Source of the DNA: a virus
Lineage: Duplodnaviria > Caudoviricetes
Strand: one strand, 5' to 3'
IMG/VR virus record: IMGVR_UViG_3300050132_000191
Coordinates: 1-57,665 of that record
DNA length: 57,665 nt
The position numbers and the translations under genes were made by a program. Positions 5,701 through 41,117 of this stretch are shown here, piece by piece. The first letter of the stretch is position 1. Each line of letters starts with the position of its first letter. Under the pieces are notes generated by a model. The model did not search any database and was not told the DNA's origin. It was given only the letters and a program-made list of their open reading frames with translations.

Positions 5701-5720
5701 ATTGTCTTTCTCCCGCTAAC

Positions 5721-5750
5721 GGAGCCGCTTACCTTAGCGGCTCCTTTTTT
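5721..5750 (+). terminator. Rho-independent terminator
   Basis: GGAGCCGCT-tacctt-AGCGGCTCC followed by T6. Confidence 0.85.
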
Positions 5751-5757
5751 GAAAAAT

Positions 5758-6492: not shown

Positions 6493-6494
6493 TC

Positions 6495-7880
6495 ATGTGC
6501 TCAATCCTTGGTGCAGTGCTCCACGATGTGGACAACAATACGAAACGCCGGCAGGTGAATGCTATCCTTGACTATATCTGGACCACCAGCCAGGAACGAG
6601 GGCGTGATGGGCGCGGGTATGTGAGTTTTGACAGCTTCGGCCATAGCGGGGACTTCGTTTTCCATAGCGAGGAGCGTCGGGACCCGACACGCTGTTCTTC
6701 GGTGGATCTTAACGCGCCTATGGTAATGGGTTTATGCCCACGGATGACAGTGGTCGGGAATATGCGGGCGGAGCCGACTACCGAATATGTTTCCGTCAAA
6801 CGGAGAAGCGATCAGCAACCGTACACCTGCGGGGGCTGGTCAATTGTGCATAACGGAACAATCGCCAACGACAAGGAACTCCGAACTCATGCTCTTCCCA
6901 CTAGCATTGACAGCGCATCAATCGCCGAACTGCTGGCCCCTATGCGACCCACGTTGGACAACTTTGCGGGAGTGATCCGCAAGCTGAAGGGAAGTTTCGC
7001 AATTCTTGCGACTCACGAAAACTGCCAGACATCAATCTTCGTTGCCGCGAATTACCGCCCAATTTGGTACATTGAAACGGAGTTCGGATATTTCTTCGCA
7101 AGCGCCAGGAACTACCTGCCCATCGCTTGGGCGCCGCGAATGCTTACGCCATACACTGTTGCAGAGTTTGGCGAGTGCGTGCGATCGTTCCCCCTATACA
7201 AGTCGGAGCAAAGTGACACAGCCCTTGTCGTATGCAGCGGGGGCCTGGACAGTGTGGTCAGTGCTGCCTACGCTCAGAAGAAACTTGGTTATAAGTTACA
7301 CCTCATTCACTTCCTGTACGGGAGCCGAGCGGAAGGCCCCGAGGTCATAGCTGTGCGAGCTGTGGCGCGGGCGCTTGGGGCCGAGATCACTTTGTTCCCA
7401 TTACCAGTGTACCAGAAAGGGGATTCGCCGCTGCTGGACCCCGATAGCAAAGTGGCTGGCGGGGAAGCAGGCGCCGAATTTGCTCATGAATGGGTGCCAG
7501 CTCGAAACTTGCTTCTTCTTAGCGTTGCAACTGCATTCGCGGAAGCTCGCGGCATCAGCGTGATCGTGTTGGGGAACAACCTCGAAGAGGCTGGCGCGTA
7601 CCCTGATAATGAACCCGAATTCATTGCGAAATTTAATGACTTGCTTCCCTTTGCAGTTGGTGACGGAAAGCGAATGAAAGTTATAATGCCTGTAGGCAAT
7701 ATGATGAAACATGAGATCGTCGCACTCGGAAAAGAAGTTGGGGCCCCGATGGAGCTGACATGGAGCTGCTATCGGGCTGGCGAGTTGCATTGTGGAAAAT
7801 GCGGCCCTTGTTTTATGAGACGCCGCGCTTTTGAAATTAACGGGTTTCCTGAAGTTATTCAATACAAGGATCAACAATGA
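6495..7880 (+). CDS. queC: Class II glutamine amidotransferase-QueC fusion (Gat-QueC)
   Basis: N-terminal MCSILG (Ntn Cys), RGRD, VHNGTI, IDS; C-terminal SGGLDS, VPARN, YPD, SCY..CGKCGPC. Confidence 0.92.
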   Translation: MCSILGAVLHDVDNNTKRRQVNAILDYIWTTSQERGRDGRGYVSFDSFGHSGDFVFHSEERRDPTRCSSVDLNAPMVMGLCPRMTVVGNMRAEPTTEYVSVKRRSDQQPYTCGGWSIVHNGTIANDKELRTHALPTSIDSASIAELLAPMRPTLDNFAGVIRKLKGSFAILATHENCQTSIFVAANYRPIWYIETEFGYFFASARNYLPIAWAPRMLTPYTVAEFGECVRSFPLYKSEQSDTALVVCSGGLDSVVSAAYAQKKLGYKLHLIHFLYGSRAEGPEVIAVRAVARALGAEITLFPLPVYQKGDSPLLDPDSKVAGGEAGAEFAHEWVPARNLLLLSVATAFAEARGISVIVLGNNLEEAGAYPDNEPEFIAKFNDLLPFAVGDGKRMKVIMPVGNMMKHEIVALGKEVGAPMELTWSCYRAGELHCGKCGPCFMRRRAFEINGFPEVIQYKDQQ

Positions 7881-28311: not shown

Positions 28312-29799
28312 TTATCTGTTTACGTTAATAATTACATCTACGGAATGGATTGCCCCAGCAAGCTTCGCCGCAATCTGAATCGGAACAGACTTACGAGCAG
28401 CACGATCCGCTGGATTTTGCTGTGCAATGGGCGGAGCGAAGACGTAGAAGCCTTTCGGTAGAAAATCATTCTGTTGTAATGCACCGAATCCGCCGGCTTG
28501 CCACACGCCCGGCGCCAGTAAGCCGTTGCGACCTGCGCGGGAGCATTCCGCTTCAATTGTTGTAACGATGAGCTGGTTCCCTTGATCCGTCTGCGGGATT
28601 TTGGTTGTCGTGGTGTAGAGCAGGTTGTAAACTGAAGTCTGAATACTCAGCGCGAGCCAATCTGTACCCGTAATGACGTCAAGGAAGTCCCCGCTGGATA
28701 CGACGCCGGGTTCAATGATTGCGGTTGAATTGTTGTACGCGACAAATACATTGCAGCCTTTAGCTTCGAGCGCCGTGATTTGCGATACGTTCAACGTCTC
28801 CGCTGCAATCCCGGGCTCTTGCTTATACATCAGGGTGATGACCGTGTTGTTCCCGTTGTAATCCGTGGTCAGGATACGCCCGAGCAGACTGCACACCGCG
28901 TAAGCGTTGGAGCTGGAATACTGCACGACGGTCCGCTTGTAAGCGAGCTGGCGGAGTTGGTAGGCGATGTCCGTCGTACTGACTGCGGAAATGGTGCCTG
29001 CCGCTTGCGTGCTGACGCCATAAACATGCTTGGAAGTTGCCCCTTCAATGTACGGAGCAATCGCAAGGTGATCCGCATCCGCTGCCCCGAGTACAGTGAG
29101 CCCGTACCAGTTCTGTCCGTAGTTCTGGTCAAACAGTGTTACCGCTGCCAGTGCAGTTTCAGCAACCACCCCGTTCGCAGCGTATGCACCGCTGGAGGTA
29201 CTGAGCCCGCCCAACATCGCGGAAATATCAACCCCGGAAGCGGGCGCAGTCAAGAAGCTGACCGTGGAAGAAGCGCCCGAAGTGGTTGACGTGAACTCGA
29301 AGCGGTTGTAAGTTGCATTCCAGACGCAAGTGGCGGACCCCGCAAGCGCGGTTTGGATAACGGAAGCAACGCCGTTCAGATTTGTCTGCAGATGGAAGTC
29401 CAGTGAAGCCAGCGTTTTAAGAACCCCGTCCACAGTAACCTTGAAAGCACCCGTGGTGATCGCTGTCCAGGTCGCCAGAAGCTGTTGGGCTGCGGATAGC
29501 GTGGCGCCAAGTAACTTGCCATAAGTGTCCGTCTTTGCCCAACGTCCAATCTGCAAAGACACGGGTTGCGGCGCTTGTTGGAACCAAAGATTGGCGGCGT
29601 AGTATTCCGACGCCGTGGTGCCGAAGTCGGCAGCAACCCCATCCAGGCCGGTATAACTACGGAAACGCTCGACTGTGTCAATAACACCCCCGGTCGAGCC
29701 CAGAATCAAGAGCGTTGAAATGTTCTGCATCTGCGCCGCAAGCGGGGACAGGTTAACTTGGACATTTACCAGGCGATTTATCGCTAGCGCGTTTGTCAT
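28312..29799 (-). CDS. Tail sheath protein (DUF3383-like)
   Basis: 495 aa; V.V.VNLSP, IGRW, YKQEPG, KIPQTD.G, KLAGAIH. Confidence 0.88.
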   Translation of the reverse strand: MTNALAINRLVNVQVNLSPLAAQMQNISTLLILGSTGGVIDTVERFRSYTGLDGVAADFGTTASEYYAANLWFQQAPQPVSLQIGRWAKTDTYGKLLGATLSAAQQLLATWTAITTGAFKVTVDGVLKTLASLDFHLQTNLNGVASVIQTALAGSATCVWNATYNRFEFTSTTSGASSTVSFLTAPASGVDISAMLGGLSTSSGAYAANGVVAETALAAVTLFDQNYGQNWYGLTVLGAADADHLAIAPYIEGATSKHVYGVSTQAAGTISAVSTTDIAYQLRQLAYKRTVVQYSSSNAYAVCSLLGRILTTDYNGNNTVITLMYKQEPGIAAETLNVSQITALEAKGCNVFVAYNNSTAIIEPGVVSSGDFLDVITGTDWLALSIQTSVYNLLYTTTTKIPQTDQGNQLIVTTIEAECSRAGRNGLLAPGVWQAGGFGALQQNDFLPKGFYVFAPPIAQQNPADRAARKSVPIQIAAKLAGAIHSVDVIINVNR

Positions 29800-29808
29800 G
29801 AATTACTC

Positions 29809-30390
29809 CTAGATGACTGTAATCGTTTCCACATAATGAACATTATCCAGTTCTATACCCGAGCTCAGTATATTCCGGACTGCGTAATCACTCACAAGTT
29901 GCCGCCGGATACTGAACGTGAATGTCGCACCCGGATACCACTTGTCTTTCACCTGTTCCGGGCTAGTCATGATATCACCGCTCTCAACTAACCCCATATT
30001 ATTCAATGACAGAATTTCCCGATTCTGTGCAACTTGCATCCCTTCCCGCAATCGCCTAGCATACGCATTTCGATTTGGGCCATAGAATGTAGCAGCAAGG
30101 AATAGAACCTCATGCCTGCGCGTCTGATTATAGCCCGGATCTGACGCGTTATGGACTTCCGCCGCATAGGTATCTGTCAACCTCCTAATGATACCGAAAG
30201 CCAACCAGTTCACATTCTCTGCGGGGATATTGGCTGGCTCCGGTTGCCAGCGCGGGCGCACATTCGCATTATCAATTCCACTTATCCCGACGACCCAATC
30301 GTGCAGGAAGTCCGTCAGCGCGTCATCTTCGAGCTGAGAGGGGGAAGGGGCGGGGGCAAGATAACCCCCGGTGGCGCTGGAGTTGGGCAT
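29809..30390 (-). CDS. Neck / tail terminator protein
   Basis: NSSATGGYL, VRPRWQ, FYGP; directly upstream of the sheath. Confidence 0.75.
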   Translation of the reverse strand: MPNSSATGGYLAPAPSPSQLEDDALTDFLHDWVVGISGIDNANVRPRWQPEPANIPAENVNWLAFGIIRRLTDTYAAEVHNASDPGYNQTRRHEVLFLAATFYGPNRNAYARRLREGMQVAQNREILSLNNMGLVESGDIMTSPEQVKDKWYPGATFTFSIRRQLVSDYAVRNILSSGIELDNVHYVETITVI

Positions 30391-30629
30391 TAACTCAGAC
30401 TCCAGCTATAGGAACCGCCCTGCCCTGTTTTACCCGCATAAACTTTGAAGCCTTCTACTGTACCGTTCACAACATTATTGGCGGACACTTTAGAGCAAAC
30501 AAGATCCGCACCAGCTTCGGACAGTCCACCGGAAATCAACGCTTTTTTCAATTCAGCTTTTCCAAAGGAATTACCACTTGACACAGCATCTCTCGTCCGC
30601 CCTAAATGCACGTGAATATGAGTTGCCAT
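30390..30629 (-). CDS. Small protein with HxH leader (putative internal head cargo)
   Basis: MATHIHVHLGRTRD-A...; 79 aa; tightly coupled to neighbouring genes. Confidence 0.7.
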   Translation of the reverse strand: MATHIHVHLGRTRDAVSSGNSFGKAELKKALISGGLSEAGADLVCSKVSANNVVNGTVEGFKVYAGKTGQGGSYSWSLS

Positions 30630-30631
30630 GA

Positions 30632-30961
30632 TCACCACTCCCGCACAGTAAACACATCCGCCGCAGTGCCCAGAACGCTAATCGCGCCCACACCGACCGG
30701 GAATCCCAGCGGAGGGAAGGTTGCCCCGGGCGCTATTGCAAAGCTCCCAGCGCCTACCGTTGCTGTGCCCAGTTCATTCACGTACATCGGATTCACGCCT
30801 CTGTTCTGCATGATCCAACCGCTGCGAAACGTGTTTGCGTCGAGAAGAACCTGCGCCACCGCAGTTGTTGCAATGGTTCCACTGTGGTCAACTACCGCTT
30901 CCTGCGTTCGGAAAATGACGGTCTGTTGCACGCCAAGTGAATCAACGATTTTGAGTAGCAT
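30632..30961 (-). CDS. Small beta-rich putative virion protein
   Basis: 109 aa; AN..R.GW..QN...PMYV pattern; SD AAGGA. Confidence 0.7.
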   Translation of the reverse strand: MLLKIVDSLGVQQTVIFRTQEAVVDHSGTIATTAVAQVLLDANTFRSGWIMQNRGVNPMYVNELGTATVGAGSFAIAPGATFPPLGFPVGVGAISVLGTAADVFTVREW

Positions 30962-30963
30962 GG

Positions 30964-31413
30964 CTATCCTTGGAAAATAGAATAAGTTGAATTCGCTGCG
31001 ACGTTGAAAGCGAGCTGAGGTATCAAACCTGATTGCAACGCATTGTCCGTCTTGTTCATACTGCTACATTCAGCCTGGAAAAACCCAGCGCCGAAATGTG
31101 GATAAAGATCTACGTGCTTGACAAGGAAATTAGATCCGCGCCATACCACAATATCAGGCTGAGAATCTGTCGTTTCACCTCTCAGCGCAAACCTGCAAAC
31201 GACCGTGATAGAACGACTCATTGTTTGATAGTCTTCCTTACGGTCCAAGTCGCTAGGACTGTTCGCAGTGACCACCCCTATCACGGGTGAAAACGTCTGC
31301 TCCGTCGGTACGCTGCGCCCGTGCGAATCAATCACATCCGTCCGACGGCGCACAGCAAAGCTATCCGCGAAATCCGGATCGGTTAGGATTTGGGTGACGT
31401 CGAGGAGGGGCAT
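30964..31413 (-). CDS. Head-tail joining (head closure) protein
   Basis: MPLLDVT..L.DPDF, PDIVVWRG; synteny. Confidence 0.75.
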   Translation of the reverse strand: MPLLDVTQILTDPDFADSFAVRRRTDVIDSHGRSVPTEQTFSPVIGVVTANSPSDLDRKEDYQTMSRSITVVCRFALRGETTDSQPDIVVWRGSNFLVKHVDLYPHFGAGFFQAECSSMNKTDNALQSGLIPQLAFNVAANSTYSIFQG

Positions 31414-31631
31414 TAAATTCTATCCAAGATCCCGCTGGCCTGGCGAAATGGTGCTGCGGCTTTATCAATGTTGGCCGCTTTCGTAGGGCTGTCCGTTTCC
31501 GCTTCCATGCAAGCCCGCATCCCTGCGGAAGCGGCTTCCTTTGCGCGGCGGATGTTTTCACGGAACTCCCGATCAGTTTGATTGCCGTCTTTTACTTTCT
31601 TCGAGCCCAGCTGAATGTGCAGTGTTGTCAT
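31413..31631 (-). CDS. Small helical protein with HxH-like leader (putative internal head cargo)
   Basis: MTTLHIQLGSKKVKD-G...; 72 aa. Confidence 0.7.
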   Translation of the reverse strand: MTTLHIQLGSKKVKDGNQTDREFRENIRRAKEAASAGMRACMEAETDSPTKAANIDKAAAPFRQASGILDRI

Positions 31632-32186
31632 TTATTTCTTCCTAATCACGAAATTTATTGAATTGCGAAGCTGCCCCGTCTGCACCAAAGGCTTGGCAAG
31701 GTCCATGCCCGGAGCATTACCTTCTGCACGCGACGCAAGCTCGGCCTTAGCGCCCTTTACCGCCTTGCCGCTCCGTATGCGAGCGCGAAGTGTGCTGTCG
31801 GCAAGCGGGGGCGCTATGCCGGCGTTGATCACTGAGCGGATCGAGGACTGAGCAATCATTCCCGCCTTGGTCAATGCTGCGCCAATTTCACCGTCGTTTG
31901 CGTGCAAGCAATTCTGAGCCGCCTTTTTGAACTGGATTACAATCCCGGGCTTCGCATTTTGAATTCCAGGCACCATGAAAGGTCGGGCGGGAATGTTTGC
32001 AGCAGGCGAGCCTCTATCATGAATAAAGGCCATGGTGGCGTTGTTCATTAGTTGTTTGTCTTCAACGTCCTTGCGAGGAGCTTCTTCCTGTGGCACGCCC
32101 ACCAGCACGTCGCTCTTCGATAGCTTTGCAAACGAAGTCTTCAACTTCGGAAGCTTGTCGAGAACGAGGCGAGCGGGGTTTTTCAT
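31632..32186 (-). CDS. Neck / tail completion protein
   Basis: VLVGVP, IH..GSP..NIPARPF, KPL..TGQLRNSI. Confidence 0.82.
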   Translation of the reverse strand: MKNPARLVLDKLPKLKTSFAKLSKSDVLVGVPQEEAPRKDVEDKQLMNNATMAFIHDRGSPAANIPARPFMVPGIQNAKPGIVIQFKKAAQNCLHANDGEIGAALTKAGMIAQSSIRSVINAGIAPPLADSTLRARIRSGKAVKGAKAELASRAEGNAPGMDLAKPLVQTGQLRNSINFVIRKK

Positions 32187-32408
32187 TTAGCGTTCCGCTT
32201 TGATATTTCGAATAGCTACGTTTAAAGAACCCTGTGCTTTGGCAATAAGGCTCTGCGCATCATCCACCATACGTTCAGCGGCCCCTTTGCTCAAAGGGTT
32301 CAGCTTGTTGTAAATTTGATCAAGCTCGCGAATAGCAGATTCCAGTTTTTCAATAGTTGGGTCTGCATCCCGTGTCTTACCCGCGTGAATGTAAATGTGT
32401 GTTGTCAT
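32187..32408 (-). CDS. Small helical protein with HxH leader (putative internal head cargo)
   Basis: MTTHIYIHAGKTRD-A...; 73 aa; SD AGGA. Confidence 0.72.
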   Translation of the reverse strand: MTTHIYIHAGKTRDADPTIEKLESAIRELDQIYNKLNPLSKGAAERMVDDAQSLIAKAQGSLNVAIRNIKAER

Positions 32409-32417
32409 TGCAAATCC

Positions 32418-32882
32418 TTAGAAGTTACTAAAACCAGGCGTCGTCAAAGGACCGGGCCACCCCTGTCCGCCGTTGCTCGGAACTGCACCGATGCCAATTT
32501 GAATGCCACCAGCGCCAAACATCTTCGCCATGCGAATAAATCGCGTGCCATAAACTGTCAAATTCCAGTCACCAGCGCCTTCAACTGTGCCGGATCCAAC
32601 GTCATATCCTACAGACACTTTATCCACGGATTTGGAAGCAATGGGCCCGACTTGTTGACCGGGAATACCACCATTAGCGGATTCGGCCTGCGCCCGTGCT
32701 TCAATAGCCACATTGTGAGCAGCGTAAAGCTCCGCTCCGATGTCGATCTGCCTGCCCCAGCGTTGCGTATTCAGAAAGCTGTACGCGGTGTTCAACCAAA
32801 ATTGAACCTGCGAAGTGGTGAACTGCGTGCTGGACGCAAACTCAGGGAAGTCTGCGCGGAACTGTTGGACGGAGATGGTCAT
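32418..32882 (-). CDS. Head-tail adaptor (DUF4054-like)
   Basis: FRADFPEF, LYAAH, SKSVDKVSV.YD, WNLT.YG. Confidence 0.85.
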   Translation of the reverse strand: MTISVQQFRADFPEFASSTQFTTSQVQFWLNTAYSFLNTQRWGRQIDIGAELYAAHNVAIEARAQAESANGGIPGQQVGPIASKSVDKVSVGYDVGSGTVEGAGDWNLTVYGTRFIRMAKMFGAGGIQIGIGAVPSNGGQGWPGPLTTPGFSNF

Positions 32883-32884
32883 AA

Positions 32885-33610
32885 CTAGCGGATCTGAAAG
32901 GCGTACTTGCGAGCAGCGTCAATTAAGTTTTCCAGCTTTTCGCATTTGTCCATCCCGTCCGCGTCGAGTTGGTTGCTCAGGGATTCGCACTTGCGTGCAG
33001 CGTCTGTCAACACCGAATTGATTTCACCGACCTTGGTTTTGAATTGCGATTCGGTCAACGCTGCATCCTTCGTCCCTTTCAACTCCTCTTTCAAGCGGTT
33101 GATTTTCTCCATCACCTCGGTCGGGATGCGCTTGTTGGCGTTCGTGTGACCGAGCCCAACCGCTTCCGCATTTTTCAATTCAAACTGAACGTCGCTCCTG
33201 CTGCGTGCGTCTTTGGTGTCCGGGCGCACTGGTTCGCGGCGTTCTGCTTTCAAATCAGTAAGCTCGCGTCTGAGTTGCATCAACTTCTGCCCTGACGCAG
33301 TTTTCATTTCCTGCACGCACGCTTGAATTTTGCGGTCCAGTTCTACAGCGCCACCGGAGGTATTTGCGTCTTTGGAATTGCCAAGCGCCTTGCTTGCCTC
33401 TTCCTTCGTGGTGTGAATTTGGGATTCAGGGATGCTGATTGTTGAGTTCCCGACTTTGACGTCGTATCTCCCAGGCTGACCCTTTTCGGGGCCTATAACA
33501 GTCGCAGCCATTGCGACATTGCGGTGGCTGGTGAATACAGTTGCTCCCGATTGGAAGGACGCATCCCGCGCCGTACTCCCATCCAGCCAAATATGCACAG
33601 TCTTTCTCAT
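32885..33610 (-). CDS. Putative polyprotein of four small modules separated by xKD/xRD motifs
   Basis: SD AGGAGG before ATG 33610; MRKTVHIWLDGSTARD-A, then SKD-A, TKD-A, TKD-A. Confidence 0.75.
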   Translation of the reverse strand: MRKTVHIWLDGSTARDASFQSGATVFTSHRNVAMAATVIGPEKGQPGRYDVKVGNSTISIPESQIHTTKEEASKALGNSKDANTSGGAVELDRKIQACVQEMKTASGQKLMQLRRELTDLKAERREPVRPDTKDARSRSDVQFELKNAEAVGLGHTNANKRIPTEVMEKINRLKEELKGTKDAALTESQFKTKVGEINSVLTDAARKCESLSNQLDADGMDKCEKLENLIDAARKYAFQIR

Positions 33611-34276: not shown

Positions 34277-35389
34277 TTACAGACCGTCGTAGTAGCCGAT
34301 GCACTCCGGATATACGACTTCCGTGGAGCCAAGACGACAGAAGTAGGTCGTTTTGTGGTAGATGCTGTCGAACTGGATTGGAGTGCGTTGCAGCAAAGTC
34401 ATCGGGAAGCGGATGCGGTTCTTTTCTTTCGTGTAAACCACAGCCCGGTCCACCGTCCCAGTGGTGCCGATTGTGCCACCAACACCGGCGCCGATGCACC
34501 ATTTCAACGGCAGAATTTCCAGCTTGCCCTTGCCCGATGTGGTCAGTAGGTTGTTGTCCTGGATGTACTTCAGGATGGAGCAATTACCGGCGCTGGATAC
34601 CTTTTGCGTGCTAATGAACCCGAACTGCGCGGGAGGGAGCATTAGGCGACCCGGAATCACAGCCCAAGCGGAAGCGGCCCACACAGATGTCAGCATGGTG
34701 TTCACATCCGCCAGAATTTCGTCCGGCGTCTTGCGTGCCCAATCCGTGTGGCCAGAAACGCCAGGTGCCAAGTTGGACACGTTGCTCACCAGTGCGTTGT
34801 TCACCAGCCCAGTGTCGCCCATGCTCGTGTCTCCGATGTAAACCTGTTCGTCGATGTCCATCTGATGCTTCAGTTGCAAGCCTTCAAACTTCTGTTGGTC
34901 CACAGGACGGCCCAAGCGTGCAGCACTTTCCAGTTCCAGGATGGTGTACTTCATTTCCATCGCCCAGGGACGCAGTTGATGCGGGATCTTGGCAATGTCG
35001 GCACTCACACCGGAGATCTGGTTCGTGTCTTTGCCGATCCAGGCCTTGCCGTTGCCGATACCGTTGCCGGTTCCCAAGCCACCGGAGGCGCCGAACGTGC
35101 TCAACGTAAAGCTGGACACTTCGTCCGCAATCGTCACGTCTTCGCGGAGGTCAATGTCCCGGCCCCATGTCACAGCAGCCAGCGGCTCATGCAGCGTCAA
35201 GTCCAAGCGTTCCAGCTCGCCAACCAGGAAGGCGCCAGTGCTGTCCACAGTGCGTCCGTCGTGCATCTTGTACGCGGTGCCCAGTGGTTTGCCCAACATA
35301 TTGCCCTTGGCGTCAATGGTGCGATAGCCGGAGTCGAAAGTCATCACGTCACGTGTTTTCATACGACGGGGAAGAATCAATTTGCTCAT
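34277..35389 (-). CDS. Major capsid protein (DUF2184-like, HK97 fold)
   Basis: 370 aa; DS.GAFL.GELERLD, TWGRDI, YTI.ELE, MDIDEQVYIGD, GL.N; SD AAGGA. Confidence 0.9.
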   Translation of the reverse strand: MSKLILPRRMKTRDVMTFDSGYRTIDAKGNMLGKPLGTAYKMHDGRTVDSTGAFLVGELERLDLTLHEPLAAVTWGRDIDLREDVTIADEVSSFTLSTFGASGGLGTGNGIGNGKAWIGKDTNQISGVSADIAKIPHQLRPWAMEMKYTILELESAARLGRPVDQQKFEGLQLKHQMDIDEQVYIGDTSMGDTGLVNNALVSNVSNLAPGVSGHTDWARKTPDEILADVNTMLTSVWAASAWAVIPGRLMLPPAQFGFISTQKVSSAGNCSILKYIQDNNLLTTSGKGKLEILPLKWCIGAGVGGTIGTTGTVDRAVVYTKEKNRIRFPMTLLQRTPIQFDSIYHKTTYFCRLGSTEVVYPECIGYYDGL

Positions 35390-35420: not shown

Positions 35421-35963
35421 TTAGATATTGAACGCAATTTCCGTGGCACCGGACGCATCCGAGCCGCCGTTGAAAGTCGCATTGGCCAGTTTCGTAGTAT
35501 TGCCCGAGCTATACACCGCCTCAAAGCCACCCAGCGTGTGAGTGCCTGTGCTGGCCTCTGACCACACATATACCGGGGCACCCTTCACCGCAGTTCCTAC
35601 CACCAGCGCCATGATGTACCCTGCTCGCAGCACGTCCATCACACCAGTGACGGGCGGTGTAGCGGCACCGAAAGAAGCAGCGCCAAAGTTGCTGGCGCTG
35701 GATTGTTGGAACGGATACGGGCGAACCGTAATACCATAACCCGAAGCAACCGTATCGGACTGGTCACCGGAAGCGTAGGGGCGAACCCCTTGGGTCGTTG
35801 CGTCCACCAGCACGGCCTGGCCATAAGCGGTAGGGGGTGCAGAAGCGTCAATGAGGCAGGGCTCAATACTGGCGGGGTGCGTGCGGTTCACGTCGCCAGG
35901 GAATCCCGCGCCCATGCGGAACGGGAAAGCGGCGTCATGTGTTTTCATGCGAATGGTTTTCAT
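35421..35963 (-). CDS. Capsid decoration/cement protein
   Basis: RM.AG.PG.V.R, GI.VRPYP, D.LR.GY, EIAFNI; between protease and MCP; SD GGAG. Confidence 0.8.
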   Translation of the reverse strand: MKTIRMKTHDAAFPFRMGAGFPGDVNRTHPASIEPCLIDASAPPTAYGQAVLVDATTQGVRPYASGDQSDTVASGYGITVRPYPFQQSSASNFGAASFGAATPPVTGVMDVLRAGYIMALVVGTAVKGAPVYVWSEASTGTHTLGGFEAVYSSGNTTKLANATFNGGSDASGATEIAFNI

Positions 35964-36003: not shown

Positions 36004-37353
36004 TTACTGATCGGCGTACCGTTTGCGGTTCGCGGCATTCAAGTCCGCGATCGACATGGGGCCAGCCTTCCTTCCCCCATCCAGCACAGCCTTACCGGCC
36101 GTATTGTTCTGATTGTTCTCACTGCGCTTCATTGCTGAAGCAGAGCGGAATAGAGTGCGAATTGCATCGCACGTCATATGCTTGGTGTCGAGTGGCTGAC
36201 CGCCAAGCACGTCGTCCACAATGGCGCGGGTGCCGGGCTGTGCATAAGCAAGGTCCAACGCCTGGCGGCGGAAGCCGCAGATCTTCTTAAACGTGATGCT
36301 GACAGACTGCGCGGCGTCGAATGTCGGAATGCGGATCCCCGGCACCAGAATCTCGGCTTGCGCCACAGTGTCGCGGAAGCTGTCGCCAAGGTATGCGCTG
36401 TCCTTCGCCTTGGAGGCTTCTTCTTTCAGCTCCTCGGGTACTTCGTCCATCGCTTCCTTCTTCACCGCTTCCTCCTCTTCCGCGTCCTTGGTCTTCTTGT
36501 CGTCAGTGTCCCCACCAGCCACCAGCTTTTCCAACGCTTCAATCCGAGCAAACATTTCAGCGTGTTCGGTTTCGTTCTTGTCGACGTGGGCTTGGAAGTC
36601 GTCGTCCTTGGTAAACGAACCACCTTGGTCACCAGCTTCCCCTGCATGGATGTGGACGTGGGTTTCTCCACCCTCGCCTTCTTCTGCAGCGTCCTTGACT
36701 TCTTCCGCCAGCTTTTCAACTTCGGCAGCGTCCTTGGCCTTGAACGCTTTCATCAAAGCATCAAGGATTTTGGAAGGTTTATTTTTCATGGGAGTTTCCT
36801 CTTTTACGGTGATTGATTTGTGGTCGGCGATGGCGCAACGTGGTCCGCAACGCCCTTGCTCAACGAGAGCAATGTGGTTGATAATAATGTTGGACTGGCG
36901 CCCCATCCCGGGCGCTGTTTCCGTGTAGTCCGCTTCATAGCCCAGACTCACTTCCCGCTTGCCACTTTTCACAGCAGCAATCCCCTCGGGTGTCGTAATG
37001 AGCATATCGCCCAGCAGCAGGTCGTCCATTGCGCCAATACCCCGACGCACATTCATCAGAATACCATGCGTCAAGTCTTTCCAGACATCCGGCGTCACGT
37101 CGTCATCAGGGTGGTCATTTGTAACAGGCTTGCCCTGGGCGCTTGCAATGGTCTCGAAGCGAAAAATATCCATGTCCTCACGGAAAATCTTCACAATCCC
37201 TTCGGGGCCGGCTTCAATGGGAGTTTCGTCAGGCCCATACACCATCATCCCCGAACGCGCCACTGGCACCTCCTCACATAACAGAAACCCTTCCGGGGTC
37301 AGGCTCTGTTTGGGACCAATCTTTTCGGTCGTATAGAATAAACCGCGTGCCAT
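36004..37353 (-). CDS. Prohead protease (DUF2213-like) fused to scaffold
   Basis: TPEGFL, GKPVT.DHP, REVSLGY, NHIALV..GRCG; acidic helical C-terminal half. Confidence 0.88.
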   Translation of the reverse strand: MARGLFYTTEKIGPKQSLTPEGFLLCEEVPVARSGMMVYGPDETPIEAGPEGIVKIFREDMDIFRFETIASAQGKPVTNDHPDDDVTPDVWKDLTHGILMNVRRGIGAMDDLLLGDMLITTPEGIAAVKSGKREVSLGYEADYTETAPGMGRQSNIIINHIALVEQGRCGPRCAIADHKSITVKEETPMKNKPSKILDALMKAFKAKDAAEVEKLAEEVKDAAEEGEGGETHVHIHAGEAGDQGGSFTKDDDFQAHVDKNETEHAEMFARIEALEKLVAGGDTDDKKTKDAEEEEAVKKEAMDEVPEELKEEASKAKDSAYLGDSFRDTVAQAEILVPGIRIPTFDAAQSVSITFKKICGFRRQALDLAYAQPGTRAIVDDVLGGQPLDTKHMTCDAIRTLFRSASAMKRSENNQNNTAGKAVLDGGRKAGPMSIADLNAANRKRYADQ

Positions 37354-37389: not shown

Positions 37390-38193
37390 TTATTGTTGTA
37401 CGTAGCTAAGGACGCCAGCCACGCTGGTTGTCGCTGCTGTAGTAAGGCATAATTGGAAGCCCGAAGCGGTTGTCATCACAGCGCCGGGGGTTGCATAGGA
37501 CAGCACCCCAACGGTCGCGGAGGGTTGCATTGCGCCAGTTAGTGCAGCCGCAGTCGTATCACAGTCAGCAGAAACGTGCGTACCCGAAGTGATTGTGACT
37601 GTGGGCGTGGTGCCCGCTGCTGTCATGCTATAGCCACAGACGTAGATGGATTTCCCCGCAGAAGCGTCAACCACCTTAGTCGTCGCGCTGGCGCCCTGGG
37701 CAATAACGGCGCTGGACTTGGCAATGCTATCAGACAAGCAAGGGTCAACCACTGGTCGCAAAGCAATTGCGGGCGCAGAGGTTCCGCTCATCCCGATAGT
37801 GCAGGTGGCAGTCAGCGCGGTGATGTGCAAGCGGGTTTGGCCATAACCCGCTGTGTCAATTCGCCAAGTGCCGGCAGCTCCAACGCTTGCAACCGATGCG
37901 CCACCCACAATCGGGTAAGCTCGCAGGGTGACCCAGACAGGAGCTCCCGTAACTTGGCTGGAACCTTGTACCGTGCCAACCAACCCGGTACAAGTACCGC
38001 TGACTTGGAGAACTGCGGTGCCCACATTGCTGGTGGTGAACGTGTAATCAGCGGGAGCGCTGTAGACAGCAGCGGGGCTGATCGCTGTGCCGATGTACGT
38101 CGGGTTCGTGTAGGGATACGCCGCATCCGCGAATACGGAGCTGGAGAAGCTCGCAGCGAGCGCCACAAGCGCAAGAGAAAGAAGTTTCTTCAT
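37390..38193 (-). CDS. Signal-peptide-bearing beta-rich protein
   Basis: MKKLLSLALVALAASFSSSVFA-D Sec-type signal; Thr/Ala/Gly-rich, 6 Cys. Confidence 0.8.
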   Translation of the reverse strand: MKKLLSLALVALAASFSSSVFADAAYPYTNPTYIGTAISPAAVYSAPADYTFTTSNVGTAVLQVSGTCTGLVGTVQGSSQVTGAPVWVTLRAYPIVGGASVASVGAAGTWRIDTAGYGQTRLHITALTATCTIGMSGTSAPAIALRPVVDPCLSDSIAKSSAVIAQGASATTKVVDASAGKSIYVCGYSMTAAGTTPTVTITSGTHVSADCDTTAAALTGAMQPSATVGVLSYATPGAVMTTASGFQLCLTTAATTSVAGVLSYVQQ

Positions 38194-38314: not shown

Positions 38315-39091
38315 TTATTCCTCAATAAACACGGGCTCTGGATAGCAACGGCAATTCGGAAACATTCCGGCGTGCGTCTGCGTGCCGTCGGATAATATAG
38401 GTGCGGTATGCCAAGGGATCACTGCGCCATTCATTTCCTTATGGGACTTGCGAACATCGGCATCCCCGGAAGTCCGCCATACATAATGCGTCACGCCAAC
38501 GTGAAGGCTGCGGGCCATTGTCAGACCTGAAGCAGTGCGAGCCACCTCGGTCCTCGCAATCAATTTGGCGCGGGATTCTGTCACCTTACCCGTAGCAAGA
38601 ATATCCTTCGCAATCTCCTCCGCTCTGCGCCCGCTTGTCAGGCCTTCGAGCGTCAACTTATGCACGCGATTCGCAGCGTCAAGAGGTAGGGACGTGATGA
38701 GTATCACTTGTTCGTTCAGAAACTCACGGAGGAATTGGCCTGTTGGCGCGTCTTGCAGTTCCTTGCGTAACTCACGCCCCATACTGCGCCCCATCTGAAT
38801 CCAGGCGTTCTCCCCCTGCCGTGCTATGCGCCCCAACATCTTTTCAGCAACACTGCGGGCCCAGGGTTCAATTGTCTGGCTGTACGCCCTCAGAACCTTC
38901 TCGAGCTCCGCACTGTTCCTGACCACACCACCGGGTGCCATACCTTTCACAATGTGGTCAACTTGCCGCGTTAAATGGCGCAGGGCTCTCAGGTATTCCG
39001 CTTCCAACCTTTCAGCCAGGTGAAATCGCTCGCGAGCTTTCCTTCGCTGCTCGTTATCAGTTTCCGCGGGGCGGGGTTTGACAGTTGCCAT
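38315..39091 (-). CDS. MuF / SPP1 gp7-like head morphogenesis protein
   Basis: RAKLIARTE, YVWRTSGD..VR.SH, PNCRC. Confidence 0.9.
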   Translation of the reverse strand: MATVKPRPAETDNEQRRKARERFHLAERLEAEYLRALRHLTRQVDHIVKGMAPGGVVRNSAELEKVLRAYSQTIEPWARSVAEKMLGRIARQGENAWIQMGRSMGRELRKELQDAPTGQFLREFLNEQVILITSLPLDAANRVHKLTLEGLTSGRRAEEIAKDILATGKVTESRAKLIARTEVARTASGLTMARSLHVGVTHYVWRTSGDADVRKSHKEMNGAVIPWHTAPILSDGTQTHAGMFPNCRCYPEPVFIEE

Positions 39092-39164: not shown

Positions 39165-41003
39165 TTAACTCAGTTTACGCATTGTGACTAAAACTTCGCG
39201 AAGTGCTGGGTGCAGCGTCAATCGGTTCGCTTCCGCAAGCGTTGCCCAATGGGAGTCCGAGGATTCATTGTTAATCCGGACGTCGAACTCGTCCACATCC
39301 GCTTCGTACGTTGTGAACCCGTCCACGCTCACTACAGGCCGAAGCGGGCCAGTGTAATCAAACCCTGTCTCCTCCAACGTCTCGCGCCGTGCTGCATCAA
39401 TTTCGGATTCGTTTGCTTCGACGTGCCCCGCAGGGAGTGCCCAGTAACCGGGATAGTCCCCACCCGTTCCGCGCTTCAGCAATAACAAGCGCCCATCGGG
39501 GGTCCAGAAAATAATTCCGGAGCTGCGTGGCATGGCGTCCTTCGCTTTACCGTTGGCGGTGTTGTCAGCTTTGATTTCAGCAATTTCCACGTCTTCGGGA
39601 AGTGGTGGGGGTTCGCTTTCTGCTTCCTTGATTGCGTCGTCGGTGATGTTCGTGAAGATCCCTGTCACGTGGCTACTCTGACGCAATTCCTTCAGCGCAG
39701 TCACTCTGTCAATCAGCCCACCTTCTTCGGCCTTCGTAATCGTATCACCGACTGACTGGGCAATGGTGGCCTTCTGTACGTCGTCCAGTTGCCACAGTGA
39801 GCGGAAGTCTAGGCGTGTTCCGTCAGGAACCTGTATCCCCTCGCTTGCTGCCATTGCCCTGTAAATTGTGGTCAGCGGGACTCGGAGCTGCTGCTCCTGT
39901 TGCTGCTTGATGGTGTCATAATAGTTACGCAAGTCCGCGTCACCGCTGCTAAACCCGGCCGGGGACTGCCCAAACAGGCGTACAAGCGGGATCTGCAGGG
40001 CGCCCGATAGTTGCTGGCCAAACTGCACCAGCGCATCGCTAAGGCCCCCAAAGGCGCTATGCCCCTGGGCTGCAAAATCATCTTCCGCATCAAGAAGCGT
40101 GATTCCCTCGATTCCTTGGAAGCGGCGCATCATGTCCACGTATGAGGTTAGCCCAGCCAGCGCGTCACCCCCTGCCGCGACTACTTGCCGCAGGTCTTTG
40201 ATCTTGTAGGTCCGGAGGTAGGACTTATAGACAAGCTGCGCCGCGCCAGTAGTGGCGCTATCGAATGCAATCATGCGGTCATACAGTCGCTCCAGAACCG
40301 ACAAGCCCCAAAGGTTCTCCATCAACCTCTGCCAGTAAGGCAAGCGAATCCCTTCCAGTCGCAAGCATCGGGAGTAATGAATTTTTTGGCTGGAAAGGGC
40401 GGGCGCTTGCGCTGTTACGCGGTAGAACTTTGGCTGTCCTAGGGCTGGCCCATATTCTGTCACAAGATCGTTGAGCTGCGGCTCCACCATCCATCGGTCC
40501 AAGGACAGGAGACCCCGAAACTGACCCTTTCTGATTGTGTTGAGTCGTAAAGGCGTTCCGGGGTCCTGGCCATCAATCAAAATCACAGCAAGGGCGCCAC
40601 CGTACAGCCGCGCCCACTTAATCGTATCACCAATTGTATTCCAGATGCCAAGCTCTGTTGACACCTCGTCAAGCCGGGAAATGTCTTCGGGTTTTATTTC
40701 GCCTTTGAGCTCGACGCCTGCGCGTGTCATGTCATCGGCGACCACGTCCACAGCGATGCCGCCAATCCAAGACCCGCGATGTACCCACTCAAGAAGTGTT
40801 CTGTTTCTCGTTATCGGATTAAATCCGTAGGAGGCTGTGGTGAGCGGGTTGTCTGCCCCTATTCCCAAATTGTGCGCGAAATTTGTGAAACTGTCGAGGG
40901 TAGTTCCGTTCTTCGCAGCTTCCTCACGAACTTTCGTGTCAGCTTTCAATGCGCTGGCGGAGTCGCGCTGCACGCTCTTAGTCCGTTGCGGTTGCGTTGC
41001 CAT
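39165..41003 (-). CDS. Portal protein (DUF1073-like) with C-terminal Nudix hydrolase domain
   Basis: VD..ADDMTR, WARLYGG, IHYSR, IPLVRLFGQSPAG; then GHVEANESEIDAARRETLEETGF matches the Nudix box GX5EX7REUXEEXGU. Confidence 0.9.
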   Translation of the reverse strand: MATQPQRTKSVQRDSASALKADTKVREEAAKNGTTLDSFTNFAHNLGIGADNPLTTASYGFNPITRNRTLLEWVHRGSWIGGIAVDVVADDMTRAGVELKGEIKPEDISRLDEVSTELGIWNTIGDTIKWARLYGGALAVILIDGQDPGTPLRLNTIRKGQFRGLLSLDRWMVEPQLNDLVTEYGPALGQPKFYRVTAQAPALSSQKIHYSRCLRLEGIRLPYWQRLMENLWGLSVLERLYDRMIAFDSATTGAAQLVYKSYLRTYKIKDLRQVVAAGGDALAGLTSYVDMMRRFQGIEGITLLDAEDDFAAQGHSAFGGLSDALVQFGQQLSGALQIPLVRLFGQSPAGFSSGDADLRNYYDTIKQQQEQQLRVPLTTIYRAMAASEGIQVPDGTRLDFRSLWQLDDVQKATIAQSVGDTITKAEEGGLIDRVTALKELRQSSHVTGIFTNITDDAIKEAESEPPPLPEDVEIAEIKADNTANGKAKDAMPRSSGIIFWTPDGRLLLLKRGTGGDYPGYWALPAGHVEANESEIDAARRETLEETGFDYTGPLRPVVSVDGFTTYEADVDEFDVRINNESSDSHWATLAEANRLTLHPALREVLVTMRKLS

Positions 41004-41117
41004 GGGTAAGTATGCTCCGTCGCCTGTAGGGGGTGTTTGAGCGGCGATGTGCCGCACGCAATGGAGCGGAGTATAACGGGGGGCGCCCCAGCAATCAAGC
41101 TGGGTGGGTGAACGGTG

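What the first reader, a model, noticed from the sequence alone, without database searches (positions are those of the whole stretch)
32885..33610. Apparent polyprotein: one leader and four small modules joined by xKD|A linkers
Seen: the 241-aa product splits at ARD|A, SKD|A, TKD|A and TKD|A into 16 + 65 + 53 + 48 + 59 aa, matching the 57-65 aa payload sizes of the three single-cargo genes. Module 1 has an SH3/Tudor-like beta pattern (FQSGATV..ATV..YDV..IPESQI); modules 2-4 look like helical hairpins. Inference: a concatenated effector array processed in the prohead, implying at least 7 distinct cargo peptides in this genome.
Basis: partly seen in the sequence, partly recalled or inferred. Interest (0 to 1): 0.82.

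Follow-up and report, generated by a model that had tools for sequence, protein, structure and literature searches.

The report
Cleavable cargo polyprotein of a phage head
A 241-residue phage head-operon protein looks like a short address tag followed by four small independent domains, each separated by the same probable protease cutting motif, so the phage may load several small proteins into its capsid from one gene.

Summary
ORF 32885..33610 (minus strand, 241 aa) has [KR]DA at residues 14-16, 79-81, 132-134 and 180-182. This gives 16+65+53+48+59 aa (four or more such motifs in 6 of 100,000 shuffles).

- **Modules recur shuffled.** They appear in other proteins, alone behind the same leader or in other combinations.
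- **Module 4 boundary.** It starts exactly at a D|A site in 7 of 7 relatives.
- **Module 1 boundary.** Where module 1 ends in the target is the natural C-terminus in 6 of 7 relatives.
- **Folding.** AlphaFold gives beads on a string (pTM 0.27) with all four sites in linkers. Module 1 alone folds confidently as a Tudor/SH3-like barrel.
- **Motif elsewhere in the head.** T-[KR]-D|A also ends the N-terminal peptides of the capsid and cement proteins. It follows the DUF2213 N-domain and precedes a NUDIX domain fused to the portal.
- **Leader.** Its HxHxH motif copies a motif in the DUF2213 scaffold, and the two co-occur (4 of 4 against 0 of 10 phages).

Cleavage, packaging and effector function remain inferred. 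I class it as a new variant of T4-style capsid-targeted internal proteins and polyvalent proteins.

The parts
32885..33610 (-). Target gene, 241 aa (P0001): leader plus four modules
   Evidence: RBS seen. No Pfam family; one weak PHROG (phrog_1244, E 7e-4).
33563..33610 (-). Leader, aa 1-16 (MRKTVHIWLDGSTARD), a degenerate HxHxH tag ending in RD|A
   Evidence: hhalign aligns the leader with DUF2213 scaffold residues 229-240 (prob 78%, E 1.8e-5). pLDDT is below 50.
33368..33562 (-). Module 1, aa 17-81, a small beta-barrel plus helix (Tudor/SH3/chromo-barrel-like); ends ...LGNSKD|A
   Evidence: Folded alone: pLDDT 87.3, pTM 0.67. Foldseek: MRG15 chromo barrel, TMq 0.64, E 0.02. VIA: Z 7.6 PWWP, 7.3 Tudor. 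Relatives P0006/8/9/10/12/15 end where this module ends.
33209..33367 (-). Module 2, aa 82-134, helical hairpin; ends ...PDTKD|A
   Evidence: Helices 86-104/108-124, pLDDT 92-94. Homologous segment at P0005 residues 139-185, 64% identity.
33065..33208 (-). Module 3, aa 135-182, helical hairpin; ends ...KGTKD|A
   Evidence: Helices 138-154/164-179. Aligned with P0002, P0003 and P0004, and bounded by KDA in P0002 and P0003.
32888..33064 (-). Module 4, aa 183-241, helical hairpin with conserved C-terminus ...LIDAARxYAFQIR
   Evidence: Helices 187-212/217-240. Seven of 7 relatives start this module directly after a D|A site. P0011 and P0013 are leader plus module 4 only.
32187..32408 (-). Single-cargo gene, 73 aa: MTTHIYIHAGKTRD|A plus a 59-aa payload
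   Evidence: Absent at the same position in syntenic locus L006.
31413..31631 (-). Single-cargo gene, 72 aa, with a weaker leader: MTTLHIQLGSKKVKD|G plus a 57-aa payload
   Evidence: Absent in L006. No Pfam family.
30390..30629 (-). Single-cargo gene, 79 aa: MATHIHVHLGRTRD|A plus a 65-aa payload
   Evidence: Absent in L006.
36004..37353 (-). DUF2213 protein (449 aa): N-domain 17-178 (candidate head protease) plus scaffold part. Motif sites at AKD208|A, TKD290|A and AKD318|S.
   Evidence: PF09979, 1.2e-45. PHROGs named 'head maturation protease'. D208 and D318/S319 are conserved in alignments A3/A6.
36646..36660 (-). HVHIH (aa 232-236) in the scaffold part, the motif that the cargo leaders copy
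   Evidence: H232/H234/H236 are invariant in 9 of 9. Co-occurs with leader genes in 4 of 4 phages against 0 of 10.
34277..35389 (-). Major capsid protein. N-terminal RRMKTRD14|V lies just before the conserved MTFD core; a second conserved site is YKMHD|GRTVDSTG.
   Evidence: PF09950. The N-terminal motif is kept in 9 of 9 clade MCPs, and as RARTRD in wider relatives.
35421..35963 (-). Cement/decoration protein with N-terminal MKTIRMKTHD10|AAFPFRMG
   Evidence: PF23982/PF22758. The motif is kept in 10 of 10 clade homologues.
39534..39545 (-). AKD507|A site between the portal domain and a C-terminal NUDIX domain of the 630-aa portal protein (39165..41057)
   Evidence: Phage_portal_3 at 93-440 and NUDIX at 511-623. 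Site. The same motif is at the junction in 3 of 3 portal-NUDIX fusions and absent from 5 of 5 portals without NUDIX.

Best explanation
The gene encodes a small cargo polyprotein of a DUF2213-type myophage head. The proposed mechanism has three steps, all inferred.

1. **Targeting.** The N-terminal HxHxH-type leader copies a motif of the phage's own DUF2213 scaffold. This brings the protein into the assembling prohead.
2. **Cutting.** The head maturation protease, most likely the DUF2213 N-domain, cuts after Asp in T/A-[K/R]-D|A. This removes the leader and separates four 5.4-6.8 kDa domains: one Tudor/SH3-like barrel and three helical hairpins.
3. **Delivery.** The pieces stay in the capsid with the DNA and enter the host at infection, as T4 internal proteins do.

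**Shown here at sequence or prediction level:**
- the modular architecture;
- the independence and shuffling of the modules;
- the placement of the sites in linkers;
- the sharing of the motif with other head proteins;
- the link between leader and scaffold motif.

**Inferred:** targeting, cleavage, the enzyme, retention, injection and any effector role.
For: **1. Motif excess.**
- Four [KR]DA in 241 aa; four or more occurred in 6 of 100,000 shuffles.
- Across 36 non-redundant leader proteins, [KRH]D[AGS] occurs 49 times against 19 expected. The consensus is K-T/A-K/R-D-A.

**2. Modules are shuffled units.**
- The full-library phmmer search gave 16 hits, all module-wise and at different positions.
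- Module 4 follows a D|A cut in 7 of 7 relatives. Two of them (71 and 76 aa) are leader plus module 4 only.
- Module 1 is C-terminal in 6 of 7 relatives and ends where the target has ...LGNSKD|A.
- P0002 and P0003 keep TKDA around module 3.

**3. Structure prediction.**
- Full length: pTM 0.27, with low confidence at 1-36, 66-85 and 127-134, and a loop at 180-186. All four sites are therefore in linkers.
- Module 1 alone: pLDDT 87, pTM 0.67.

**4. The same motif at independent processing-type positions.**
- It sits just before the conserved core of the MCP (9 of 9) and the cement protein (10 of 10).
- It sits after the DUF2213 N-domain and before its C-domain: D208 is invariant in A3, and D318/S319 are invariant in A6.
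- It sits before NUDIX in 3 of 3 portal-NUDIX fusions.
- In the window, 12 of 14 [TAS][KRH]D[AGSV] motifs in 34 late proteins lie in these head proteins.

**5. Leader equals scaffold motif.**
- hhalign of the cargo family against the DUF2213 family aligns only the leader with scaffold residues 229-240.
- All 11 DUF2213 proteins with the scaffold region present in leader loci carry THIHIH.
- Among 14 phages chosen without regard to leaders (13 as DUF2213 hits, PB1 by accession), 4 of 4 with the scaffold motif have a leader gene and 0 of 10 without it do.

**6. Accessory, late-operon behaviour.**
- 26 of 39 pattern hits are real leader ORFs, and 23 of those 26 lie beside head or tail genes of this clade.
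- They are inserted at many different intergenic positions on the late strand.
- The window's three single-cargo genes are missing from syntenic L006.

**7. Cargo domains in relatives fit packaged-effector families.**
- LPD3 in BgManors32 gp73, 9.5e-29.
- Weak ParB-like hits in L024 and L030.
- Module 1 fused to a Peptidase_S78 prohead protease in P0014.

**8. Literature passages.**
- The first 65 aa of the E217 MCP and about 30 aa of the XM1 MCP are not seen and are thought to be cleaved (PMC10329688; PMC10457771).
- The PB1 MCP reads AMD64|S65.
Against: - **No experimental data.** There is no proteomic or biochemical evidence for cleavage or packaging in this clade. The E217, XM1, Pam3, MMNM and Pa193 passages I read give no cleavage-site sequence.
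- **DUF2213 is not a proven protease.**
  - The Pa193 authors call the homologue a scaffolding protein.
  - The XM1 authors proposed a different gene as the protease.
  - hhalign against an S78 protease found nothing.
  - Only a language-model lead points to Mu-like_Pro (0.90).
- **The cement protein is a puzzle.** It is an external decoration protein in E217 and XM1, yet it carries the motif. That is awkward for a protease acting inside the prohead.
- **Not every junction has the motif.** The module 1 relatives and the module 2 relative (P0005) lack a KDA site at the matching boundaries.
- **The full-length AF2 alignment was shallow.** It had 8 rows and covered only modules 3-4. Low pLDDT and pTM may partly reflect that. 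No PAE was returned.
- **No function for the modules.** No module matches a known effector or anti-defence family.
Confidence: 0.57

Rival explanations
1. It is an auxiliary scaffold or core protein. The helical-hairpin modules help build or line the capsid interior. They are then cut at the KD|A sites so that they can leave the head, or stay bound to the shell. They have no role after injection.
For: - Modules 2-4 are ~50-aa helix-turn-helix hairpins, the shape of coat-binding scaffold domains.
- In Pa193, a helix-turn-helix fragment (residues 286-326) of the DUF2213 homologue gp24 stays bound under the five-fold vertices of mature capsids (PMC11042391 passages; PDB 9B40 match).
- P0003 has a weak Phage_scaffold hit (E 0.22, far below cut-off).
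- The leader copies a scaffold motif.
Against: - The modules show no profile similarity to the DUF2213 scaffold apart from the leader.
- Gene content is highly variable between close relatives, whose MCPs are 60-82% identical: different modules, numbers and positions. The single-cargo genes are absent in L006. That is unusual for assembly factors.
- Relatives carry enzyme-like or polyvalent-protein domains behind the same leader: LPD3, ParB-like and NUDIX.
- Module 1 is a Tudor/SH3-like barrel, not a scaffold-type hairpin.
Confidence: 0.22
2. It is an uncleaved multidomain late protein, in the virion or not. T-K-D-A is then a conserved linker or interaction motif, or a site for a host enzyme, and not a phage-protease site.
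For: - No cleavage data exist.
- DUF2213 is not a proven protease.
- Some module junctions in relatives lack the motif.
- The motif on the external cement protein does not fit a protease confined to the prohead.
Against: - The motif sits just before the conserved mature-looking cores of the MCP and cement protein, and at domain junctions of three other protein families.
- MCP N-termini of related phages are missing from cryo-EM maps.
- Natural C-termini of module 1 relatives and natural starts of single-cargo module 4 coincide with the sites.
Confidence: 0.15
3. The pattern is chance, or the ORF is not a real gene.
For: None beyond the absence of any named family.
Against: - Shuffle test: four or more motifs in 6 of 100,000.
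- RBS and operon position.
- Homologues with the same junction motif in other contigs.
Confidence: 0.02

Closest known systems
T4 internal proteins IPI/IPII/IPIII with an N-terminal capsid targeting sequence, cut by prohead protease gp21 (details recalled; only the titles and abstract openings listed were seen)
   Same: - A short N-terminal tag on small late proteins.
- The tag ends at the prohead-protease motif with an acidic P1 and a small P1' residue.
- The cargo is variable, accessory and non-structural.
- The expected fate is packaging with the DNA and injection.
   Different: - No sequence relation.
- A different head-protein set (DUF2213, PF09950 MCP).
- The tag is an HxHxH strand copied from the scaffold.
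- The motif is T-K/R-D|A, not L/I-x-E|.
- Here several cargo domains are strung on one polypeptide.
Polyvalent proteins of phages and conjugative elements (Iyer et al. 2017, PMC5512222; passages read)
   Same: - Several unrelated domains in one polypeptide, encoded among virion genes.
- Extensive domain shuffling between relatives.
- Predicted release of domains by proteolysis.
- Relatives of the target's leader family carry LPD3 and ParB-like domains.
- NUDIX fused to the portal parallels the MuF and portal fusions described there.
   Different: - Those proteins are large (up to 15 domains) and are thought to be processed by their own zincin-like peptidase domain.
- The target is 241 aa and has no peptidase domain and no LPD domain.
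- It uses a leader plus a head-protease-type motif in its linkers.
- In the passages I read, that paper does not describe an HxHxH leader or a KD|A linker motif.
Multi-site processing of head and ejection proteins in giant phages (phiKZ, SPN3US). Only search listings and abstract openings were seen; the motif is recalled.
   Same: Many internal head proteins are cut by the prohead protease at a short consensus, some at several sites.
   Different: - A different protease family and motif.
- The substrates are large proteins with propeptides, not arrays of ~50-65-aa independent modules.
- No shared N-terminal tag is known to me.
DUF2213 scaffold of Pbunavirus Pa193 (gp24, PDB 9B40; PMC11042391 passages)
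   Same: It is the same family as the window's 36004..37353 protein. A helical-hairpin fragment persists inside the capsid, which shows that pieces of such proteins can remain in the head.
   Different: PB1 gp22, the Pbunavirus DUF2213 homologue translated here, has no HxHxH motif and no KD|A sites, and no leader genes were found in the PB1 region scanned. The target's modules are not similar to the scaffold.

Membership tests
T4-type CTS internal proteins | Short N-terminal targeting peptide removed by the prohead protease | tested here: inconclusive
   A leader ending in the shared motif is present and is conserved across 36 proteins. Targeting and removal cannot be tested with these tools.
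T4-type CTS internal proteins | gp21-type motif (L/I-x-E|) and a T4-like head gene set | tested here: not met
   The motif here is T/A-K/R-D|A. The head genes are DUF2213, PF09950 and PF23982. It works like this family but is not a member.
T4-type CTS internal proteins | Presence in mature virions and injection into the host | not testable with these tools
   No proteomic data were available. The paper searches found none for this clade.
Polyvalent proteins (Iyer 2017) | Two or more distinct domains in one polypeptide, encoded among phage virion genes, with shuffled architectures in relatives | tested here: met
   Four modules of two fold types. Late-operon context. Shuffling.
Polyvalent proteins (Iyer 2017) | Carries catalogued effector or LPD domains and/or a zincin-like peptidase | tested here: not met
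   No Pfam hit in P0001. Only relatives of the leader family have LPD3 or weak ParB-like hits.
Phage scaffolding proteins | Conserved, essential helical protein present in all related phages at a fixed position | tested here: not met
   - Only 2 proteins were found in 5.8 billion clusters by whole-length search.
- No hit in 50,697 phage records.
- Module content varies between close relatives.
- The resident scaffold is the DUF2213 C-part.
Phage scaffolding proteins | Helix-turn-helix coat-binding domain | tested here: inconclusive
   Modules 2-4 are predicted hairpins, but they have no profile similarity to the scaffold. Binding is not testable.
Protease-processed viral polyprotein | Mature units separated by one consensus motif that is also used in the virus's other substrates | tested here: met
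   at sequence level only.
Protease-processed viral polyprotein | Demonstrated cleavage by the viral protease | not testable with these tools
   This needs biochemistry or virion mass spectrometry.

The most novel reading that the evidence does not exclude
This phage clade may run a cassette-based protein delivery system.
- Any small domain can be packaged by giving it an HxHxH leader that mimics the scaffold, possibly pairing strand to strand or through a metal with the scaffold's THIHIH.
- Alternatively it can be fused to the portal.
- Domains can be strung together with T-K-D|A linkers, which an Asp-specific DUF2213 head protease cuts inside the prohead.
- The released 5-7 kDa domains would be injected as first-wave counter-defence factors.

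If true, the leader plus motif would be a sequence-only rule for finding injected proteins in this clade of DUF2213 phages. It would also be a portable tag for loading foreign proteins into capsids.
Probability: 0.3. Interest if true: 0.82.

Novelty: new variant of a known kind. Interest (0 to 1): 0.63.

Why it matters
**DUF2213 heads are common and poorly understood.** They occurred in 484 of 50,697 phage records. Their maturation protease, its specificity and its substrates are undescribed in the papers I could search.

**This locus gives a testable cleavage rule** (T/A-K/R-D|A), a list of predicted substrates, and a predicted capsid-targeting tag whose presence tracks a scaffold motif.

**If confirmed, three things follow.**
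- Packaged and injected proteins could be read from sequence. This is a route to new early-acting anti-defence proteins. The neighbours include Acb1-like and NUDIX domains.
- It would show that phages can deliver arrays of very small domains from one cleavable gene.
- It would offer a compact tag-and-linker system for loading proteins into phage capsids.

Tried and rejected
- **Family searches on P0001.** Pfam gave nothing. PHROGs gave only a weak hit, phrog_1244 at E 7e-4.
- **tblastn of P0001 against 50,697 phage records** found no match.
- **Word-indexed protein search** found only P0002 besides the query itself.
- **Scan of genome contigs with the module 4 alignment** gave 69 pattern hits, none confirmed. 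The viral-contig scan gave one locus, L006.
- **Foldseek of the full-length model against PDB** found nothing at E <= 0.001. For module 1 alone the matches were fold-level only (Tudor, chromo barrel, SH3, KOW) and carry no functional inference.
- **The Atlas search for module 4** found only generic helical hairpins, such as HisKA dimerisation helices.
- **Complex prediction.** I ran complex prediction with the DUF2213 protein and the leader plus module 1. It returned no answer (score 0.00, controls not run). This is neither support nor evidence against.
- **hhalign of the DUF2213 alignment against the S78 protease fusion P0014** found no relation. The catalytic type of DUF2213 therefore stays open. 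The Atlas lead to Mu-like_Pro (0.90) is only a lead.
- **phmmer of the MCP against PDB** matched only 8HDT, and not over the N-terminus. It therefore could not locate a mature N-terminus.
- **A global MAFFT alignment of all 15 relatives** misaligned module 1 relatives onto module 4. I did not use it for folding.
- **Literature.**
  - 'DUF2213' returned 7 papers, none on cleavage (listing only).
  - 'HIHIH' plus 'phage' returned 22 papers. The 10 listed were all about His-tags or unrelated topics.
  - The searches gave no description of this leader or motif.
  - The MMNM and Pam3 passages had nothing on head proteolysis.
  - Supplementary files, such as virion mass-spectrometry tables for Pa193, Pam3 and MMNM, were not available and might hold relevant peptides.
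- **An idea I dropped.** I first took ZHS_4, annotated 'prohead protease', for a second protease. It is an Acb1-like 2H phosphoesterase.
- **The search of earlier findings** had nothing for this genome.
Full report
**What is there.**
The window is a 57.7-kb viral record, about 95% complete by CheckV. Its minus strand carries a head-neck-tail operon of the E217/Pam3/XM1 type:
- portal, 39165..41057;
- MuF-like protein, 38315..39091;
- DUF2213 protein, 36004..37353;
- cement protein, 35421..35963;
- PF09950 major capsid protein (MCP), 34277..35389;
- DUF4054 adaptor, 32418..32882;
- Neck1, 31632..32186;
- sheath, 28312..29799.

The finding is the 241-aa ORF at 32885..33610, which lies between the MCP region and the adaptor gene. 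It has a good RBS. It matches no Pfam family and has only one weak PHROG hit.

**Check of the observation.**
- [KR]DA lies at residues 14-16, 79-81, 132-134 and 180-182. This divides the protein into 16+65+53+48+59 aa, exactly as reported.
- Four or more such motifs arose in 6 of 100,000 shuffles.
- Three small neighbouring genes carry the same kind of N-terminus, with payloads of 59, 65 and 57 aa:
  - MTTHIYIHAGKTRD|A;
  - MATHIHVHLGRTRD|A;
  - the weaker MTTLHIQLGSKKVKD|G.

**Are the pieces real units?**
A phmmer search of 1.84 billion representatives returned 16 proteins at E <= 0.001, counting the query itself. Every match was to one or two modules, at varying positions.
- **Module 4.** It occurs as leader plus module 4 only (P0011, 71 aa; P0013, 76 aa) and behind other modules (P0002, P0003, P0004, P0007, P0016). 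In 7 of 7 relatives it begins directly after a D|A site.
- **Module 1.** It is the C-terminal domain in 6 of 7 relatives. They end at ...GN(S/E) or ...GG, where the target continues ...LGNSKD|A. In the seventh, P0014, it is fused behind a Peptidase_S78 prohead protease.
- **Module 3.** It recurs in P0002, P0003 and P0004, bounded by KDA in P0002 and P0003.
- **Module 2.** It recurs in P0005, where the flanking site is absent.

AlphaFold2 on the full protein gave pTM 0.27. Confident elements were separated by low-confidence stretches at 1-36, 66-85 and 127-134, and a loop at 180-186, so all four sites fall in linkers. That alignment had only 8 rows covering modules 3-4, and no PAE was returned.

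Module 1 folded alone with 8 rows gave pLDDT 87.3 and pTM 0.67. The model is a Tudor/chromo-barrel/SH3-like barrel plus a helix: Foldseek TMq 0.64 to MRG15, and VIA Z 7.6 and 7.3 to PWWP and Tudor domains. These are fold-level matches only.

**Is the motif a processing site?**
I could not test cleavage. The motif does, however, turn up where processing is expected in four other protein families of the same heads.
- **MCP.** The N-termini read ...K-T-R-D just before the conserved MTFD...RTVDSTGAF core in 9 of 9 clade members. Wider relatives read ...RARTRD.
- **Cement protein.** The N-termini read ...K-T-[KRH]-D before the conserved FxFRMGAG core in 10 of 10.
- **DUF2213 protein.** It has AFKAKD|A directly after the N-domain (D208 invariant in 6 of 6). 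It has KAKD|S before its conserved C-domain (D318/S319 invariant in 9 of 9).
- **Portal.** It carries a C-terminal NUDIX domain (PF00293, 2.6e-16) preceded by AKD507|A. All 3 portal-NUDIX fusions examined have the motif there, and the 5 portals without NUDIX lack it.

In the window's 34 late proteins, [TAS][KRH]D[AGSV] occurs 14 times, and 12 of these are in the head proteins above. Over 36 non-redundant leader proteins the motif is 2.6-fold enriched (49 against 19), with consensus K-T/A-K/R-D-A. Leaders without K/R at P2 mostly still have T-x-D|A or S-D|A.

Published cryo-EM passages report that the first 65 residues of the E217 MCP and about 30 of the XM1 MCP are not seen and are probably cleaved. 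The PB1 MCP reads AMD64|S65. I did not verify that PB1 and E217 are identical there.

**The leader.**
A DNA pattern for M-x-K-H-I-H-I-H found 39 viral contigs.
- Of these, 26 carry real leader ORFs. The other 13 are short chance ORFs.
- Of the 26, 23 lie next to head or tail genes of this same clade, with MCPs 60-82% identical to the window's. Of the rest, L010 had no marker in 4.4 kb, and L042 and L046 are doubtful.
- The leader genes sit at many different intergenic places in the late operon, always on the late strand.
- Ten of the 36 non-redundant proteins have two or more sites, for example L013 with four and L017, L035 and L027 with three each.

Profile comparison of the cargo family with the DUF2213 family aligns only the leader with scaffold residues 229-240, (G/D)(D/E)THIHIH (prob 78%, E 1.8e-5). 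That scaffold motif is present in all 11 DUF2213 proteins of leader loci in which the scaffold region is present. H232, H234 and H236 are invariant in alignment A6.

I also looked at 14 phages chosen without regard to leader genes (13 as DUF2213 hits, PB1 by accession).
- Four have the scaffold motif: BgManors32, ZHS, WC36-2 and vB_E192a.
- All four have a leader gene just upstream of, or near, the DUF2213 gene.
- None of the 10 without the motif has one in the region scanned. The 4 vs 0 of 10 split is unlikely by chance (my own Fisher estimate about 0.001, not computed in a call).
- Two of the four leader genes were found by eye, because the regular expression missed them.

**Most likely mechanism (confidence 0.57).**
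1. The leader brings the protein into the prohead by using the same contact as the scaffold's HxHxH segment.
2. The head protease then cuts after Asp at each T-K-D|A, removing the leader and freeing four 5.4-6.8 kDa domains (sizes).
3. The domains remain with the DNA and are injected.

The enzyme is inferred to be the DUF2213 N-domain, for three reasons:
- It is the only protease candidate in the module.
- PHROG names call it a head maturation protease.
- Its own domain junctions carry the motif.

Its catalytic type is unresolved. The variability of cargo between close relatives argues for accessory, conflict-type cargo and against assembly factors. This includes the absence of all three single-cargo genes from syntenic L006. 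The LPD3, ParB-like, NUDIX and neighbouring Acb1-like domains point the same way. No module has a recognised function.

**Rivals.**
- **Auxiliary scaffold or capsid-lining protein (0.22).** In its favour are the hairpin shape of modules 2-4 and the Pa193 result, where a hairpin of the DUF2213 homologue stays under the five-fold vertices. Against it are the lack of similarity to the scaffold beyond the leader and the variability of the genes.
- **Uncleaved protein with a linker motif of another function (0.15).** This stays open because nothing has been shown biochemically. The external cement protein also carries the motif, which I cannot explain.
- **Chance or a non-gene (0.02).** Excluded.

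**Comparison with what is known.**
- **T4 internal proteins.** The system works like these: a capsid targeting sequence, cut by the prohead protease at an acidic P1. The details are recalled; I saw only the listings. It is not a member, because the motif, the tag and the head gene set all differ.
- **Polyvalent proteins (PMC5512222, passages).** It shares shuffled multi-domain architecture in virion gene contexts. It lacks their catalogued domains and their own peptidase.

I therefore class it as a new variant of a known kind, with interest 0.63.

Noticed in passing
window 39165..41057 (-), junction at 39534..39545: The portal protein carries a C-terminal NUDIX domain (PF00293, residues 511-623), separated from the portal domain by ...NGKAKD507|AMPR. 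The same arrangement and motif occur in L025 and L013. Five related portals have neither the NUDIX domain nor the motif. This is probably an eighth cargo, delivered by fusion to the portal.
   Followed up: yes
window 36646..36660 (-); L002, L004, L049, L051 and 11 IMG/VR loci: The scaffold part of the DUF2213 protein has a (G/D)(D/E)THIHIH motif. It is invariant in the clade and is present only in phages that also encode HxHxH-leader proteins: 4 of 4 against 0 of 10 among phages chosen without regard to leaders.
   Followed up: yes
window 35421..35963 (-) and 34277..35389 (-): The cement (decoration) protein and the MCP both start with a short basic peptide ending K-T-[KRH]-D. In ZHS and L024 both have longer, similar, hydrophobic N-terminal peptides ending RARTRD or RARTHD. 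I cannot explain why an external decoration protein would carry the same apparent propeptide and site as the MCP.
   Followed up: partly
P0005, P0008, P0009, P0012, L024, L029, L002 gp73, L004 ZHS_5, L049, L051; P0014: - Many leader proteins have a conserved (E/D)xxHPRxxxG(K/Q/E)FGSGGG motif right after the leader.
- Variants of it (HNHGKGGQF, HKHGKGGKF) flank module 1 in the S78-protease fusion P0014.
- The motif region hits PHROGs of 1119-2434-aa proteins (phrog_30637, 18222, 22591).
- The target itself lacks the motif. Its role is unknown.
   Followed up: partly
L004 2116..2715 (Edwardsiella phage ZHS gene ZHS_4); L024 7999..8715: ZHS_4 is annotated 'prohead protease', but it matches the anti-CBASS protein Acb1 (PF23474, 2.8e-22; 2H phosphoesterase). 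It sits directly upstream of a leader gene. A homologue occupies the same position in L024.
   Followed up: partly
window 37390..38193 (-): This is a 267-aa ORF between the MuF and DUF2213 genes. It has a Sec-type signal peptide (MKKLLSLALVALAASFSSSVFA|D), a Thr/Ala/Gly/Ser-rich sequence, and no Pfam family. It is an odd resident of a head module and may be a moron.
   Followed up: no
L006 (IMG/VR contig) against window 30390..33610: In the syntenic relative, the adaptor, Neck1 and following genes abut each other. All three single-cargo genes of the window are absent, and the polyprotein slot holds a two-module protein (P0007). The cargo genes therefore behave as insertions.
   Followed up: yes
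L047 (Pseudomonas phage PB1) 7218..8366 and 5172..6569: The PB1 MCP reads ...GSAMD64|S65N66. This matches the E217 report that the first 65 residues are not seen. The PB1 DUF2213 protein also contains ...HRAMD|SAEV. This suggests that cleavage after Asp may be general for DUF2213 heads, with a different P2/P3 preference.
   Followed up: partly
L002 8214..8747 (Burkholderia phage BgManors32 gp73): gp73 consists of the leader (MARHLHIFIHTHD|A), the HPR...GEF motif and an LPD3 domain (PF18798, 9.5e-29). This ties the leader family to the polyvalent-protein domain repertoire.
   Followed up: yes
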